Position numbers and translations under genes: made by a program | The notes under the pieces: model-generated | What the model was told of the DNA's origin: nothing | The model's database searches: none | What the model saw: only the letters and a program-made list of their open reading frames with translations | Assembly (NCBI GenBank): GCA_965248355.1 | Contig: OZ252098.1 | Coordinates: 2,080,001-2,144,000, forward strand | DNA from: Candidatus Latescibacterota bacterium | GTDB taxonomy: Bacteria > Latescibacterota > UBA2968 > UBA8231 | DNA length: 64,000 nucleotides | Direction: 5' to 3' | Shown: positions 19,133-24,448 of the stretch, in pieces | Numbering within the stretch: the stretch's first letter is position 1 | How the letters are laid out: the number at the start of each line of letters is the position of its first letter

Positions 19133-20490
19133 GCACCCTCCCGCATGGAGCTGATCGCCGCCTTCAGGTTGCTCTCCGAGTCGATGAGGAACTGGGCCGA
19201 GGTGACGATCCGCTCTCCTTCGCGCAGGCCTTCGAGCACCTCGTAGAAGCCGCCGGCCTCCGCCCCGACGCGGATCTCGCGCGGCTGGAAGCGGCCTTCA
19301 CCGAGGCTGACCACGGCCACACGGCGCGGCCCCGAGTGGATCACCGCCTGCACCGGCACCGCGACCACGCTCTCGGCCGGCAGCGGCGAGTGGATGTTGA
19401 CGTTGGCGTACATCTCCGGCTTCAGCTCGAGGTTCGGGTTGGGGAAGCTCATGCGCACCTTCACGGTCCGCGTCTCCGCCTCGAGGAAGGGGTAGACGTA
19501 GGTGACCTTGCCGGTGAAGGTCCGGCCCGGCAGGTAGGAGAGCTCGACCTCGGCCTCCTGCCCCTGGCGCACCCACGGCAGCTCGTACTCGTAGATGTCG
19601 GCGTAGACCCACACCCGCGACAGCTCGGCGATGCGGTAGAGGTGCTGCCCCGGGGCGATGTGCTGGCCGTCGAAGACCGCCTTGTGCACCACCGTGCCTT
19701 CCTGGGGCGAGTGCACGGTCATGGTGCGCCGCGCCTCGCCCGTCTGGCGCAGGTCCTCGATCTGCCGGTCGCTGATGTCCCAGTAGCGCAGCCGCTGCAG
19801 CGATGCCGACAGCAAGTCGCGCGCCCCGGTCAGAGCGTCGCCCCCGGCGCCGGAGCGCAGGCGCTCGCCGTAATCGACGGCGGTGAGGAACTCCTCCTGG
19901 GCGGCCACCAGCTCGGGGCTGAAGATCTGCAGCAGGGGCTCCCCCTTCTCCACCATCTGCCCGGTGTAGTCGACGAAGAGCTGCTCCACCCAGCCGGCGA
20001 TCTTGGTATTGACGTCGGTCATGCGCGTCTCGTCGTAGGCCACGCGGCCCACGGTGCGCACCGTCCGGTGCAGGGCCCGGCGCTCCACGAGCGCCGTCCT
20101 GACACCGATGTTCTGCACCGTCGCCGGATCGATGGTCACCGTGCCCTCGGCCTGCAGCTCGTCCTCGTAGACCGGCACCAGGTCCATGCCCATGGGCGAC
20201 TTCCCCGGCTCGTGGGAGGTGTACGACGGATCCATCGGCGCCCGCCAGTAGGCGACGGCGCGCTCACCCGAGGCGCTGCCCGCCGCCGGCTGGTCGGCCA
20301 CCAGGTCCATGCCGCAGACCGGGCAGCTGCCCGGCTTGTCGGAGACCACGGCGGGGTGCATGGGGCAGCGGTAGAGGTCGGCCTGTTCGTGGGGGGCGTG
20401 CATCGATGCCCCACCGGCGCCCCCCAGCCAGAGACCGAAGCCGGTGCCGGCGGCCAGGGAGAGGATGACGGCGATCGCGTATCTCCACAT
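19129..20490 (-). CDS. cusB: CusB-type periplasmic adaptor with N-terminal metal-binding domains
   Basis: YRCPMHP...CPVCGMDL, APMDP...PGKSPMGMDLVP, SPELVAAQEEF, SAQFLIDSESNL. Confidence 0.95.
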   Translation of the reverse strand: MWRYAIAVILSLAAGTGFGLWLGGAGGASMHAPHEQADLYRCPMHPAVVSDKPGSCPVCGMDLVADQPAAGSASGERAVAYWRAPMDPSYTSHEPGKSPMGMDLVPVYEDELQAEGTVTIDPATVQNIGVRTALVERRALHRTVRTVGRVAYDETRMTDVNTKIAGWVEQLFVDYTGQMVEKGEPLLQIFSPELVAAQEEFLTAVDYGERLRSGAGGDALTGARDLLSASLQRLRYWDISDRQIEDLRQTGEARRTMTVHSPQEGTVVHKAVFDGQHIAPGQHLYRIAELSRVWVYADIYEYELPWVRQGQEAEVELSYLPGRTFTGKVTYVYPFLEAETRTVKVRMSFPNPNLELKPEMYANVNIHSPLPAESVVAVPVQAVIHSGPRRVAVVSLGEGRFQPREIRVGAEAGGFYEVLEGLREGERIVTSAQFLIDSESNLKAAISSMREGA

Positions 20491-20505: not shown

Positions 20506-21765
20506 TCAGAAGAGCCGTTGGCCGACGACGGACTCCAGCCGGGCCAGGCTCTTCTCGTATTGCCACAGGTGGCGGTAGTACTCGATCTCGAAGTCGAGCA
20601 GGGTCATCTGGTTGTCCAGGAGGGTGAGGAAGTCGACCTCGTCCACCTGGTAGCCGGCGATGGCCGCGGCCAGGGACTGGTCGGCCTGGGGGACGATGAC
20701 GTCCCGGAACAGGGCCATCTCCTGCAGGTGGGTCCGGGCGTCGATGTGCAGCTGCTCGATCTGCAGCGCCAGCTCGCGGCTCTCCGCCTCGATGCGGGCC
20801 TCGGCCTCCCGGACCCGTGCCCGCGCCTCGGCGATCCTGGAATCCTGCTTGCGCCCCTGGTAAAGGGGCAGGTTCAGCCTGAGGCCGGCGGAGAAGAAGT
20901 CGCTGCCCGAGACGGGATCGTCCTCGAAGCCGCGCTGGCGCCAGGCGGCGCTCACCTCGAAGTCGGGACGCCGTTCCCGGACGGCCAGCCGCTCGGCCGC
21001 CTTCCAGCGCTCCCGCCCTTCGCGCAGGCCCCGCAACAGGGGCCGCTCCCGCAGGGCCAGCTCCCGCAGCCGGTCCTCGTCGAAGGTGAAGGGGGTCTGC
21101 TCCGGGGGAGGCGTGGGACCCACCGGCTCTCCGGGCCCCCGGTTCAACAGGGCGTTCAGCCGCGCCCCCGTCCGCCGGCGGTCCCCCTCCATCTCCAGCA
21201 GGCGCCGGCGCAGGCTCGACAGCGACACCTGGGCCTTGAGCACGTCCTGCTGCGGCACCCGCCCCACGGAGTACTTCGTCTGCGCGATGCGCACGAAGTC
21301 CCGCAGGAGGTCCCGGTTCTTCTCGGCGATGGCGATCGAGCGGTCGAGGAAGCCCAGCTCGAAGCAGGTCTGCTTCACCCGATTGACGATGGTCCCCTCG
21401 CGCTCCCGGAGGGCGGCTTCGGCGGCGGCGGCGCCGTGGGCGGCGGCGGCCTCCCGGTCGGCCCGCTTCCCCGGGTAGGGCAGCTTCTGGGAGAGCGTGA
21501 CCTGACGGCCGCTCATGGGCGAGCCGTCGAGGGCGAGGGGATGGAAGGGGACGTTGCTGAGCTCCAGCTTCAGCCCCGGGTCCGGCAGGGCCCCGGCCGC
21601 CGGGACCGCGGCCCGGGCCGCCTCGGCGCCGTGTTCCAGCGCCTTCAGCGACGGGTTGGCGGCCAGGGCCTCCTCGATCAGGCGGTCGAGGTCCAGCTCG
21701 GGCGGTTCAGCGGTCGCGGCCGCGGCCAGGGACACGACCGCGGCGCAGAGGGTTCTCCGGTGCAT
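20506..21765 (-). CDS. TolC/CusC-family outer membrane efflux protein
   Basis: Signal peptide; ALAANPSL, ALPDP, SQKLPYPGK, LNLPLY, Y..G...QQDVL; lies upstream of cusB and cusA. Confidence 0.92.
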   Translation of the reverse strand: MHRRTLCAAVVSLAAAATAEPPELDLDRLIEEALAANPSLKALEHGAEAARAAVPAAGALPDPGLKLELSNVPFHPLALDGSPMSGRQVTLSQKLPYPGKRADREAAAAHGAAAAEAALREREGTIVNRVKQTCFELGFLDRSIAIAEKNRDLLRDFVRIAQTKYSVGRVPQQDVLKAQVSLSSLRRRLLEMEGDRRRTGARLNALLNRGPGEPVGPTPPPEQTPFTFDEDRLRELALRERPLLRGLREGRERWKAAERLAVRERRPDFEVSAAWRQRGFEDDPVSGSDFFSAGLRLNLPLYQGRKQDSRIAEARARVREAEARIEAESRELALQIEQLHIDARTHLQEMALFRDVIVPQADQSLAAAIAGYQVDEVDFLTLLDNQMTLLDFEIEYYRHLWQYEKSLARLESVVGQRLF

Positions 21766-21768
21766 TCT

Positions 21769-21904
21769 TCCTTCTCCTGTTTCCGGACGGGCCGGTACGC
21801 GGCACGCGCGGGCTCACGGCCCGGCCCTGGGGGGTCGGACCGGCCTGCGCGTCGCATGGTGCGGCTCTGCGTCGGCCGGAAGGCGCGACGAGAGCGGAGA
21901 AGGA
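21769..21904 (-). promoter_or_regulatory. Putative SD-sequestering mRNA stem between the leader ORF and tolC/cusC
   Basis: On the mRNA, UCCUUCUCC follows the leader UGA directly and is complementary to GGAGAAGGA 3 nt before the tolC AUG; extra UUCCGG/CCGGAA pairing. Confidence 0.7.
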
Positions 21905-22282
21905 TCAGATCAGGTAGATGCTGTGGAGGGCGTAAAGGGGGACCTTGGCGGCATGGGGCGGAGGTCCCGGCTCAACCGTTTCGCGGGCCGTGGCGCGGAG
22001 GGCCCGGCCCGACGTGCTCGCGGGGGGAATGGCGGAGGTCCCCTGGCCGGAGGGCAGCCAGGAGGGGGCGGGATCCGGGGAAGGCCGGGAGTCCTCGGCA
22101 CACGCCAGGGCGGCGCAGCAACAGGCGGCCCGCAACTGCTCGGAGTCGCCCGCCGCAGGCGCGTGGCAGCCGGAGACAGCCGCCACCAGCGCGCATGGGG
22201 AGCAGTCCGCCGCGGCGGCGACGCTGCTGGCCGGCAGTGCGGCGACGAGCACTGCCAGCGCGATGGCTCGGGCGATTCTCAT
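21905..22282 (-). CDS. Small secreted Cys-rich protein, putative metal-sensing leader peptide (CutF/HYC_CC_PP-like)
   Basis: SD GGAG plus ATG at 22282; signal peptide MRIARAIALAVLVAALPASSVAAA; CSPC, GCH, CCC..C; C-terminal PGPPPH..VPLYALHSIYLI. Confidence 0.75.
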   Translation of the reverse strand: MRIARAIALAVLVAALPASSVAAAADCSPCALVAAVSGCHAPAAGDSEQLRAACCCAALACAEDSRPSPDPAPSWLPSGQGTSAIPPASTSGRALRATARETVEPGPPPHAAKVPLYALHSIYLI

Positions 22283-22478
22283 CTCAACTCCGGTCCCGGC
22301 GAACATACCCGGAGGGCCGACGTTTCGCAACCGGGGGCGGTTCCTGCGGGGCGGGTCTGCGGTGCGCTCCCGGCCGCGTCCCCCCCGGGGTAGCACCTGG
22401 GCCTTCGAGACGGCAGGCGGCAGCGCCCGGACTCGGAATTATGGGGGTATTTGCGAATTTACTCTTCATGGATAATAT

Positions 22479-22487
22479 TGCTATAAT
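22479..22487 (+). promoter_or_regulatory. Extended -10 promoter element for the AAA ATPase gene
   Basis: TGCTATAAT in an AT-rich patch 26 nt upstream of the ATG at 22514. Confidence 0.6.
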
Positions 22488-22513
22488 CGACAAACCTTCC
22501 TACAATTCCACTC

Positions 22514-23704
22514 ATGGATCCGATCAGGAATCCCTACGCTCCCGGGGCCGGCACGCCTCCGCCCCAGTTGGCAGGCCGGGACGATCTGCGCGAGAACGTC
22601 CGTGTGGCGCTGGCCAGAATCAAGCTCGGCCGTCCGTCCAAGAGCCTTCTCATGGTCGGCCTGAGGGGAGTCGGCAAGACCGTGCTGCTCGAGAGCATGC
22701 GCGAAGAAGCGCAGGCTGTCGGTATCCGCGCCTTGTCCGTCGAGGCGCCCGAGAACCGCTCGCTCCCCGCCCTGCTCGCCCCCCAGTTGAGGCAGGCGCT
22801 GCTCCAGCTGTCGAACAATGAGAGGGCGAAGAAACTCGCTCACAGGGCGCTCAGGGGCCTGGCGGGTTTCGCCGCCGCTCTGAAGGTGAAGTACCAGGAC
22901 ATCGAGGTGGGGCTCGATCTCGAGCCGGAGCCGGGATTGGCTGACAACGGCGACCTCGAGATGGATCTACAGGCGTTGCTGGAGGCCGCCGGTCTGGCGG
23001 CCAAGGAGGCGGAGACGGCGCTGGCCCTGTTCGTCGACGAGCTCCAGTACGTCGAGGAGGAGGAGCTGGCTGCGCTGATCATCTCCCTCCACCTGACCGC
23101 CCAGCGGCGGTTGCCCGTCGTCATGGTCGGGGCCGGCCTGCCCCAGCTCCGGGCCCGCACTGGAAGGGCGAAGTCATACGCCGAGAGGTTGTTCGACTTT
23201 CCAGAGGTCGGAGCGCTCACAGCCGCGGCGGCGCGAACGGCCATCGCCAGACCGGCCGAGGATGAAGGCGTGGCCATCGACGATGACGCCCTGCAACGAA
23301 TCGTCGAGGAGACTCACGGCTACCCGTACTTCCTTCAGGAGTGGGGGAAGCACTCCTGGGATGTGGCGGAGGGGCCGCCGATCGGGATCGCCGACGTCGA
23401 GCGCGCGTCGGTCACCGCTCGCGCGGCTCTGGACGAGGGCTTCTTCCGGGTGCGGTTCGACCGCCTGACGCCGTCGGAGAAGAGGTATCTGCGGGCCATG
23501 TCCGAGCTGGGCCCGGGCCCGCATCGCTCGGGCGACATCGCCCGGGTGCTGGGTCTCAAGGTCACCTCTCTCGGGCCGGCGAGGTCCCAGCTGATCTCGA
23601 AGGGCATGATCTGGAGCCCCGGCCACGGCGACACGGCCTTCACGGTGCCCCTCTTCGACCGGTTCATGCGCCGCATCATGCCCGGCGAGGACTGGCGGCG
23701 CTGA
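22514..23704 (+). CDS. P-loop AAA (AAA_16-like) ATPase with probable C-terminal winged helix
   Basis: NPYAPGAG.PPP.LAGR, Walker A GLRGVGKT, Walker B LFVDELQ, GYPYFLQEWG, FTVPLF. Confidence 0.9.
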   Translation: MDPIRNPYAPGAGTPPPQLAGRDDLRENVRVALARIKLGRPSKSLLMVGLRGVGKTVLLESMREEAQAVGIRALSVEAPENRSLPALLAPQLRQALLQLSNNERAKKLAHRALRGLAGFAAALKVKYQDIEVGLDLEPEPGLADNGDLEMDLQALLEAAGLAAKEAETALALFVDELQYVEEEELAALIISLHLTAQRRLPVVMVGAGLPQLRARTGRAKSYAERLFDFPEVGALTAAAARTAIARPAEDEGVAIDDDALQRIVEETHGYPYFLQEWGKHSWDVAEGPPIGIADVERASVTARAALDEGFFRVRFDRLTPSEKRYLRAMSELGPGPHRSGDIARVLGLKVTSLGPARSQLISKGMIWSPGHGDTAFTVPLFDRFMRRIMPGEDWRR

Positions 23705-23738
23705 CCCCCGCGGATCAGCAACGCGGGAAGGCCTGGGC

Positions 23739-24137
23739 TCACGACCGGGACCAGTTCTCCACCCGCAGGTCCGGCACGCGCCCGAACTCCCCCTGGTCGT
23801 TCGTGACCAGGGTTGCGTCCAGGCTGCGGGCATGAGCGGCGATGAAGAGATCGTTTGCGCCTATCGGCCTGCCTCGCTGCCTGAGCGCATGGCGAATCTC
23901 ACCGTAGTGCGCCGCGGCATCGACGCCGAACGGGAGAATCGACAGATCGTGAAGAAACCCCTCCAACACCCGCCTGTTCTCCTCGACGCGCTCCGAATTG
24001 GCGACGCCGTAGCAGAGCTCCGCGCAGGTGATCGAGGAGATGCAGATCTTGGCCGCATGCTCTTCGAACCTCTCGCGCAGTGCCTCATCGCGCTGGTTGA
24101 TCACGTAGATGCAGATGTTGGTATCCAGCATGTACAT
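23739..24137 (-). CDS. vapC: VapC PIN-domain toxin
   Basis: MYMLDTNICIY, ISSITCAEL.YG, GRPIGANDLFIAAHA, LVTND..EF.RV..L.VENW. Confidence 0.96.
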   Translation of the reverse strand: MYMLDTNICIYVINQRDEALRERFEEHAAKICISSITCAELCYGVANSERVEENRRVLEGFLHDLSILPFGVDAAAHYGEIRHALRQRGRPIGANDLFIAAHARSLDATLVTNDQGEFGRVPDLRVENWSRS

Positions 24138-24376
24138 CAGCGAATGTCATCCCGCTCTTCGAGGGCGGGCTGATCCCGCGGAGGCAGGGAGCCGCGCGAG
24201 CCGGAATCGAACCAGGCGCGCCAGTTCTTGCCGCGGGGGCGCAGAGTTACCTCGTCGCCCACCTTGACGATCTCGACTTCGGAGGTCTCGAACCGGCATT
24301 GAGCCGGCAGGCGGACGGCTTGGCTGCGGCCGCTCCAGAAGACCTTGGCGATGCCTCGAAAGTCCGGTGCGTTCAT
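24137..24376 (-). CDS. vapB: VapB (AbrB/MazE-type) antitoxin
   Basis: AKVFWSGRSQAVRLPAQCRF; SD GGAG before the ATG at 24376; stop overlaps the vapC start. Confidence 0.92.
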   Translation of the reverse strand: MNAPDFRGIAKVFWSGRSQAVRLPAQCRFETSEVEIVKVGDEVTLRPRGKNWRAWFDSGSRGSLPPRDQPALEERDDIR

Positions 24377-24400
24377 TGCTTCTTCTCCGTTACAGAATCG

Positions 24401-24422
24401 GGTATATCTCACGATATATACC
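24401..24422. promoter_or_regulatory. Inverted repeat, probable vapBC autorepression operator
   Basis: GGTATAT-N8-ATATACC just upstream of vapB. Confidence 0.6.
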
Positions 24423-24448
24423 AGTGCTCCTCCCGTCAACCAGGAAGG

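What the first reader, a model, noticed from the sequence alone, without database searches (positions are those of the whole stretch)
21763..22282. Candidate metal-sensing ribosome-stalling leader controlling cusCBA: secreted Cys-rich uORF plus an anti-SD arm abutting its stop codon
Seen: a 125-aa ORF with a signal peptide, CxxC/CH/CCC clusters and a PGPPP..VPLYALHSIYLI tail lies directly upstream of tolC-cusB-cusA. The 9 nt right after its UGA (UCCUUCUCC, 21896-21904) are perfectly complementary to the tolC SD region (GGAGAAGGA, 21769-21777), with a further UUCCGG/CCGGAA helix. Known: Rhodobacter CutF and Bordetella CruR are secreted Cu-binding leader peptides that couple ribosome stalling to downstream gene expression, and for CutF this acts by unfolding an SD-masking hairpin. 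Inference: a ribosome arrested near this stop would cover the anti-SD and switch on efflux translation. The tail has no RAPP motif and resembles the uncharacterised HYC_CC_PP-type leaders, so this could be a distinct arrest-peptide class on an RND pump.
Basis: partly seen in the sequence, partly recalled or inferred. Interest (0 to 1): 0.85.

Follow-up and report, generated by a model that had tools for sequence, protein, structure and literature searches.

The report
CutF-like leader gating copper efflux
A small exported, cysteine-rich gene ends right beside an RNA stem that hides the start of a copper/silver efflux operon, so it probably works like the known copper sensor CutF, but its conserved proline-free tail suggests the ribosome pauses by a different chemistry at or next to the stop codon.

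Summary
Real and conserved. The 125-codon ORF (22282-21905, minus) precedes cusCBA, and the 9 nt after its stop pair with the cusC Shine-Dalgarno (P 0.88-1.0; fold z -5.1). The extra UUCCGG/CCGGAA helix is not supported (P 0). The leader occurs in 102 of 168 genomes of the phylum and in at least eight other named lineages, mostly before an outer-membrane efflux gene. Conserved: export signal, Cys clusters, a linker free in sequence but fixed in length (CC to C-terminus 66-76 aa, 27 of 27 clusters), and a tail L[YF]xL[HNKY]xS[FYL]L[IL]-stop. The anti-SD/SD helix changes sequence between lineages and keeps pairing. In this gene only a modelled ribosome on the last three codons frees the cusC start (12.2 to 3-4 kcal/mol); one at PPP does not. 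The concept is published: Ozturk 2023 lists outer-membrane efflux genes as the commonest neighbours of CutF-like leaders. New here: a family no library names, sharing its tail with HYC_CC_PP proteins, and geometry that points to a stop-proximal, non-proline pause. Stalling and metal sensing are inferred, not shown. Verdict: new variant of a known kind.

The parts
22325..22330 (-). putative sigma-70 -35 hexamer of the leader-cusCBA transcript
   Evidence: TTGCG(A/G), 17 nt, (T/C)AT(G/A)TT in 7 of the 7 closest loci that hold this DNA (read by eye); 8 of 12 consensus matches, below the threshold of the scan, which did not list it
22302..22307 (-). putative -10 hexamer
   Evidence: as above; inference
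22288..22291 (-). GGAG ribosome-binding site of the leader
   Evidence: sequence
21905..22282 (-). leader ORF, 125 aa, no Pfam/NCBIfam family
   Evidence: GC by codon position 0.71/0.68/0.86 and excess third-position changes against close orthologues; homologues in 102 of 168 genomes
22211..22282 (-). probable Sec signal peptide (about residues 1-24)
   Evidence: hydropathy, (91 of 99 homologues of 105-140 aa have a similar N-terminus); helix 2-14 in the model; not a SignalP result
22100..22204 (-). Cys/His cluster CxxC-x8-CH-x13-CCC-x4-C (residues 27-61), putative metal or disulfide sensor
   Evidence: C30, C39, C55, C56 conserved in 90% or more of 95 aligned homologues; metal binding is inferred
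21941..22099 (-). disordered linker acting as a length ruler; holds PPP at 21964-21956
   Evidence: mostly non-synonymous change (e.g. 19 non-syn to 6 syn codons against L003); CC(C) to C-terminus 66-76 aa in 27 of 27 clusters; no fold, pTM 0.26
21905..21940 (-). conserved tail PLYALHSIYLI-stop, candidate arrest sequence
   Evidence: L(-10) 110, Y/F(-9) 107, L(-7) 105, S(-4) 91, F/Y/L(-3) 116, L(-2) 103, I(-1) 98 of 120 homologues; synonymous codons vary. The window has I in place of S at -4
21896..21904 (-). anti-SD arm, +1 to +9 after the stop codon
   Evidence: 8 inner pairs kept in 8 of 8 close loci with one change on both sides
21778..21895 (-). G+C-rich inner hairpins that bring the two arms together; variable in length between relatives
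21769..21777 (-). Shine-Dalgarno region of cusC, masked in the model
20506..21765 (-). cusC-like outer membrane efflux protein
   Evidence: PF02321 6e-52
19129..20490 (-). cusB-like adaptor with heavy-metal-binding domains
   Evidence: PF16576, PF19335; best NCBIfam hit CusB, below its cut-off
15899..19132 (-). CusA/CzcA heavy-metal RND transporter
   Evidence: TIGR00914 over cut-off

Best explanation
The gene is a cis-acting, co-translationally exported sensor leader of the CutF kind. One transcript covers leader and cusCBA; its intergenic RNA folds so that the 9 nt after the leader's stop hide the cusC Shine-Dalgarno (modelled, conserved). While a ribosome translates the last codons, the 72-residue linker spans the exit tunnel and translocon and places the Cys cluster in the periplasm (inferred from length). 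Metal (most likely Cu(I)/Ag(I), from the CusA/CusB-type pump) bound there, or the loss of disulfide-driven pulling, prolongs the ribosome's stay on the last one to three codons or at the stop, where the hydrophobic tail sits in the tunnel (inferred by analogy with CutF). The dwelling ribosome covers the anti-SD, cusC is translated, and Rho-dependent polarity may carry the effect on to cusBA (Rho present; inferred). Shown here: gene, family, neighbourhood, helix and geometry in silico. Not shown: export, metal binding, stalling, direction of control.
For: Helix P 0.88-1.0 and z -5.1. Cost of opening the cusC start falls from 12.2 to 3.2-4.1 kcal/mol only with the P site at codons -3 to -1; 11.5-13.1 at -22 to -5. 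With the ribosome on the last codon the drop is 4 kcal/mol or more in 7 of 25 phylum clusters (counted from its rows) and 8 of 22 loci of other lineages, against 1 of 111 control gene pairs of this genome, none reaching this locus's 8. The helix differs in sequence by lineage and keeps pairing: U-A to C-G between two genera; 10 pairs with G-U changes in 17 loci of another genus, one locus with 3 nt added on both arms; 9-13 nt helices at about -2 to +15 in Zixibacteria, Acidobacteria and others. +1 to +10 is 84% pyrimidine. Tail runs to the last residue in 112 of 120 profile hits. A pattern for the tail and stop alone recovers 26 Cys-rich leaders among 80 loci read, and 18 of 25 next genes scanned are OEP. 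No CusR-type or CueR regulator over cut-off in this 95.7% complete genome. CutF precedent: PMC9973294 and bioRxiv 10.1101/2025.02.05.636593.
Against: About half of the family does not show the effect: a drop of 2 kcal/mol or more in 12 of 25 clusters and 11 of 22 outside loci; representatives of the three largest clusters (22, 17, 12 loci) show none. In some lineages the partner of the SD lies in the coding region (-32 to -21, or -44 to -35, over the PP codons), which fits a pause further upstream. Cognate against non-cognate arms is weak: 18 of 27, p 0.041 for -6 to +18, and 15 of 27, p 0.095 for -45 to +20, on related sequences. Within close groups there is one two-sided change among 8 loci, a single event, and none among 17. 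The tail counts come from hits of a profile that contains the tail. Any terminating ribosome would cover the same arm. No expression or stalling data.
Confidence: 0.55

Rival explanations
1. Plain long-range translational coupling: every ribosome that terminates at the leader's stop opens the stem, so cusC output follows leader translation without arrest. The exported product is a periplasmic metal-binding or pump-tuning protein (as CzcI is said to be), and the hydrophobic C-terminus is a protease or PDZ tag.
For: The arm starts at +1, inside the footprint of any terminating ribosome. All three stop codons occur (TGA 76, TAA 12, TAG 5 of 93). CzcI is called a quencher of Czc activity (PMC9045368 passage). 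Non-polar C-termini as protease tags are recalled, not tested.
Against: A free product gives no reason for a linker fixed in length (66-76 aa, 27 of 27) yet free in sequence and unfolded. The motif spans 10-12 residues, longer than recalled PDZ tags. No usual copper regulator over cut-off in the genome.
Confidence: 0.2
2. Same sensor, but the pause is proline-based (EF-P-sensitive PP at -12/-11 in most members, PPP at -19 to -17 here) and acts through Rho or through refolding rather than by covering the +1 arm.
For: P is commonest at -12 and -11 (71 and 63 of 120). In some lineages the SD partner overlaps or follows the PP codons and the best opening is at codons -12 to -8. The region -40 to +10 is C/U-rich and G-poor, like a rut site; Rho is present; CruR acts through Rho (PMC9426467 passages).
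Against: PP lies in the last 15 residues of only 58 of 120 proteins and 11 of 27 clusters; many have no PP there, while L, L, S, F/Y, L, I are kept. In this gene a ribosome at PPP leaves the SD closed.
Confidence: 0.2
3. The helix is incidental (pyrimidine-rich codons next to a purine-rich SD in G+C-rich RNA) and the gene is an ordinary small periplasmic protein.
For: The tail's residues have pyrimidine-rich codons; cognate-arm test is weak; half of the clusters show no opening.
Against: The arm here is non-coding, the pyrimidine peak is after the stop, control pairs rarely show the effect, and different helices sit at the same place in distant lineages.
Confidence: 0.05

Closest known systems
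CutF of Rhodobacter capsulatus (cutFOG; PMC9973294; bioRxiv 10.1101/2025.02.05.636593)
   Same: Small Sec-exported Cys-rich uORF, first in a copper-defence operon, followed by a stem that masks the next gene's SD; the effective ribosome position is within a few codons of the stop.
   Different: CutF ends PEPEGPPPRL (PPP 3-5 residues from the end, EF-P-sensitive) and has CxxxC about 45 residues from that motif. Here PP is within the last 6 residues in 1 of 120, the tail is hydrophobic, the main cluster is CCC about 72 residues from the end, there is no DUF2946 hit at this locus, and the target is cusCBA.
'CutF-like' list D of Ozturk 2023, including CusD, SilD, CzcI of Cupriavidus metallidurans
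   Same: OEP genes of RND metal pumps are their most frequent neighbours; cusD is expressed in unchallenged cells while cusCBA is not, and cus has no two-component genes (PMC9045368 passage).
   Different: The list required PP within the last 15 residues; this protein fails by one residue, and about half of its family fails. Whether any of the 29 clusters has this tail could not be seen: the logos are pictures and File S1 was not among the three files held. Most listed gaps are under 100 nt; here 94-268 nt.
NCBIfam HYC_CC_PP (NF047658)
   Same: Signal, paired Cys clusters and the same tail: two members over cut-off end PL[YF]IL[HN][SE]SFLI-stop.
   Different: No HYC motif; the window protein does not hit the model; 4 of 120 homologues hit at 10-17 bits, cut-off 28. 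No paper in the library names the family.
CruR of Bordetella pertussis (PMC9426467)
   Same: Cys-motif uORF with fixed spacing to a C-terminal arrest motif.
   Different: CXXC-45-RAPP, Rho termination, copper switches uptake off; RAPP-like in 1 of 120 here.

Membership tests
CutF-like proteins (Ozturk 2023 filters) | at most 150 aa | tested here: met
   125 aa
CutF-like proteins (Ozturk 2023 filters) | Sec signal peptide (SignalP) | tested here: inconclusive
   hydropathy and charge fit; SignalP not available
CutF-like proteins (Ozturk 2023 filters) | PP within 15 residues of the C-terminus | tested here: not met
   PPP at 107-109 of 125, 16 residues follow; 58 of 120 homologues meet it
CutF-like proteins (Ozturk 2023 filters) | next gene on the same strand within 1000 nt, metal-related | tested here: met
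   139 nt to cusC; 90 of 93 distinct phylum loci have an OEP-like gene next, 2 cusA, 1 a heavy-metal-binding-domain gene
CutF-like proteins (Ozturk 2023 filters) | Cys/His metal motif | tested here: met
   CxxC, CH, CCC conserved; binding itself not testable
CutF mechanism | stem masking the downstream SD within reach of a ribosome at the leader's end | tested here: met
   in silico only
CutF mechanism | Cu-induced stalling at an EF-P-sensitive C-terminal PPP | not testable with these tools
   stalling needs experiments; the PPP here is 16 residues from the end and a ribosome there does not open the stem in the model
DUF2946 (PF11162) / CruR | profile match; CXXC, 45 residues, RAPP | tested here: not met
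   no hit for the protein or 18 aligned members nor at this locus in the genome; RAPP-like 1 of 120
HYC_CC_PP (NF047658) | score over 28 bits; HYC motif | tested here: not met
   weak hits in 4 of 120 homologues
HYC_CC_PP (NF047658) | same C-terminal tail before the stop | tested here: met
   2 members over cut-off share it; they were picked by the tail pattern, so this does not give its frequency in that family

The most novel reading that the evidence does not exclude
The stop-anchored L[YF]xL[HNKY]xS[FYL]L[IL] tail, shared with HYC_CC_PP proteins and spread over many phyla, is an arrest peptide of a kind not yet described: it holds the ribosome at the last codons or at termination without a proline or RAPP motif, and a periplasmic Cys cluster about 72 residues away sets the dwell time according to metal, making it the main switch for RND metal pumps in lineages where no CusRS-type control was found.
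Probability: 0.3. Interest if true: 0.75.

Novelty: new variant of a known kind. Interest (0 to 1): 0.47.

Why it matters
Only two metal-sensing leaders of this kind have been worked out (CutF and CruR, per the papers read), both with proline motifs 3-5 residues from the end. This family gives the same layout with a different tail, a longer ruler and an anti-SD whose position predicts where the ribosome must sit. That makes two questions testable with one construct: whether periplasmic metal can control a non-proline, possibly termination-stage pause, and what the unexplained HYC_CC_PP, CusD and SilD type genes do. If it is only coupling, it is still an unannotated regulatory gene family at the head of many metal-efflux operons.

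Tried and rejected
UUCCGG/CCGGAA helix: rejected. PPP as the site that opens the stem: rejected for this gene. DUF2946 membership: rejected; the two weak genome hits are elsewhere, and the one inspected (L125) overlaps another reading frame. RNA-level explanation of the tail: disfavoured, synonymous codons vary, including purine-rich ones. Rfam: 0 matches at E up to 1 over 21600-22600. No terminator-like site in the intergenic region. Structure prediction gave no fold (pTM 0.26), so no fold search was run. ESM Atlas: nearest clusters at 0.96 are unnamed, mostly Acidobacteriota; nearest named DUF8199, DUF6769, DUF6660 at 0.92-0.94, leads only. The structure string was off by one column; its +1 control and one search give the right register. 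Literature searches for HYC_CC_PP, for arrest peptide plus termination plus heavy metal efflux and for CutF-like plus Bacteroid plus efflux since 2023 found no paper on this tail; the library lacks most subscription journals.

Full report
Observation. The ORF at 22282-21905 (minus) encodes 125 residues with a basic-hydrophobic N-terminus and Cys at 27, 30, 39, 54-56 and 61. After 139 nt come an OEP gene, a CusB-like adaptor with heavy-metal-binding domains and a CusA/CzcA transporter. The 9 nt after the stop pair with the cusC SD region at probability 0.88-1.00; the region folds better than 200 of 200 shuffles (z -5.13). A sigma-70-like promoter with a 17-nt spacer lies 19 nt before the leader's start in 7 of 7 close loci (by eye; the scan did not list it).

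The gene is real and forms a family. Of 30 loci fetched by similarity to this cusC in 41 genomes, 26 have such a leader directly upstream; of the other four, one is cut by a contig end, one has the leader in front of an intervening ATPase gene, and two show none. A profile of 18 leaders matched 102 of 168 genomes of the phylum, nearly always once, and 120 proteins among 50%-identity representatives. I held DNA for 30 matches and fetched 60 more of the 104 listed: 116 loci had a hit, 114 had downstream DNA, 93 were distinct; the next gene was OEP-like by BLAST in 90 (one placed by hand), cusA in 2 and a heavy-metal-binding-domain gene in 1. No member matches Pfam or NCBIfam over cut-off. A 78%-identical relative is labelled hypothetical protein by NCBI.

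Anatomy. Three things are kept: Cys clusters; the distance from CC(C) to the C-terminus, 66-76 residues in 27 of 27 clusters and 60-80 in 117 of 120 proteins, although the linker changes mostly non-synonymously and has no predicted fold; and the tail. Counting from the end, L(-10) 110, Y/F(-9) 107, L(-7) 105, S(-4) 91, F/Y/L(-3) 116, L(-2) 103 and I(-1) 98 of 120, against P(-12) 71 and P(-11) 63. These hits came from a profile holding the tail, so the counts lean upward; that 112 of 120 matches end at the very last residue is not built into a local profile. Synonymous codons vary in the tail, so selection is on the peptide. Of 25 next genes scanned, 18 are OEP, 1 CusB-like, 2 FtrD-like, 1 DUF3347, 1 redoxin-like, 2 without hit. 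Two of the Bacteroidota leaders are HYC_CC_PP members over cut-off.

RNA switch. Among 8 close loci of two genera the 8 inner pairs are kept in all, with one U-A to C-G change between genera, a single event. In 17 loci of another genus a different 10-bp helix sits at +1 to +10, with G-U changes and no two-sided change in the alignment; one locus has 3 nt added on both arms. Over 92 loci (9 start codons corrected by hand) 47 pair the ribosome-binding region with -30 to +15; others pair with -44 to -35 or locally. Own arm against foreign arms: better in 18 of 27 clusters, p 0.041, for -6 to +18; 15 of 27, p 0.095, for -45 to +20; 11 and 8 of 27 for two coding control windows. This is weak, and clusters are related. 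A modelled 30-nt footprint lowers the cost of opening this gene's cusC start from 12.2 to 4.1, 3.2 and 4.1 kcal/mol at P-site codons -3, -2, -1, to 10.7 at -4, and not at all at -22 to -5, PPP included. Across 25 of 27 clusters (2 skipped for long gaps) a drop of 2 or more occurs in 1, 5, 8, 9 and 12 at codons -20, -12, -8, -4 and -1; the three largest clusters show none in their representative. In 22 outside loci (of 26; two near-duplicates left out, two skipped for long gaps, some starts probably wrong) the drop at -1 is 2 or more in 11 and 4 or more in 8, against 3 and 1 at -12. Among 111 of 244 roughly called control gene pairs of this genome it is 2 or more in 9, 4 or more in 1, 8 or more in none. 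The control has this genome's G+C and crude gene calls.

How it most likely works. Shown in silico: a constitutive-looking promoter, an exported-type leader, a masked SD, and a position at the leader's last codons from which a ribosome unmasks it. Inferred: the ruler puts the Cys cluster just beyond the translocon while the tail is in the tunnel; metal there lengthens the dwell and turns the pump on, as for CutF. No CusR-type or CueR regulator over cut-off was found in this genome; Rho is present. Confidence 0.55. Rivals: coupling by ordinary termination with a product that acts in the periplasm (0.2), a proline- or Rho-based route (0.2), chance (0.05).

What is known. PMC9973294 (abstract, results sections 5 and 10-12, first part of the discussion, bioinformatic methods, legend of Fig. 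S6 read) shows the mechanism for CutF and predicts 5,334 CutF-like proteins, with OEP genes as commonest neighbours, and notes CzcI without a proline motif. bioRxiv 10.1101/2025.02.05.636593 (abstract, discussion, passages) places the CutF pause at PPP, five to three residues from the end. PMC9426467 (passages) gives CruR's RAPP and Rho route. PMC9045368 (passages) reports cusD expressed without cusCBA in unchallenged cells. So a leader on an RND metal pump is in print as a prediction. This protein fails that paper's PP filter by one residue, is not DUF2946 and is not HYC_CC_PP by score; it works like CutF by layout and is a sister of HYC_CC_PP by tail. The cluster logos are pictures and File S1 was not held, so I cannot say whether this tail class is among the 29 clusters. 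Three searches found no paper on the tail. This scan holds 129 earlier notes with the words CutF, leader and efflux; they are unchecked, and show only that the kind recurs.

Verdict. Real, conserved, a new variant of a known kind. Interest 0.47. The boldest reading left open, a non-proline pause at or next to the stop codon tuned by periplasmic metal, has probability about 0.3 and would deserve 0.75.

Noticed in passing
window 22514-24439; L004: An AAA-ATPase gene and what looks by eye like a PIN-toxin/AbrB-antitoxin pair (label recalled, not searched) lie between the metallophosphatase-like gene and the leader; in G006 the phosphatase-like gene is directly upstream of the leader, so the block looks inserted or lost.
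   Followed up: no
L133 and L195: Leaders with the same tail precede FtrD-like genes in two Desulfobulbales genomes, with no modelled unmasking at the last codon; control could run the other way for an uptake system.
   Followed up: partly
L121 and L012 (G030:C2): The leader stands before a gene with a heavy-metal-binding domain that appears to be the P-type ATPase gene ending just before cusC.
   Followed up: partly
L093, first 13 nt after the leader stop and the SD region: Three bases are added on both arms of the helix relative to 16 congeners, a matched insertion.
   Followed up: partly
L131, L136, L142, L149, L150, L152, L174 and others: Prevotella and other genomes carry dispersed TTCA-type intergenic repeats that read FFILHSSFFI-stop in one frame and swamp the tail pattern.
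   Followed up: no
L016-L030, L071-L098: cusC often starts with GTG or TTG behind a strong SD in relatives.
   Followed up: no
window 11973-13244: A 423-aa ORF that looks by eye like an IS256-type transposase (label recalled, not searched) lies 2.6 kb beyond cusA.
   Followed up: no
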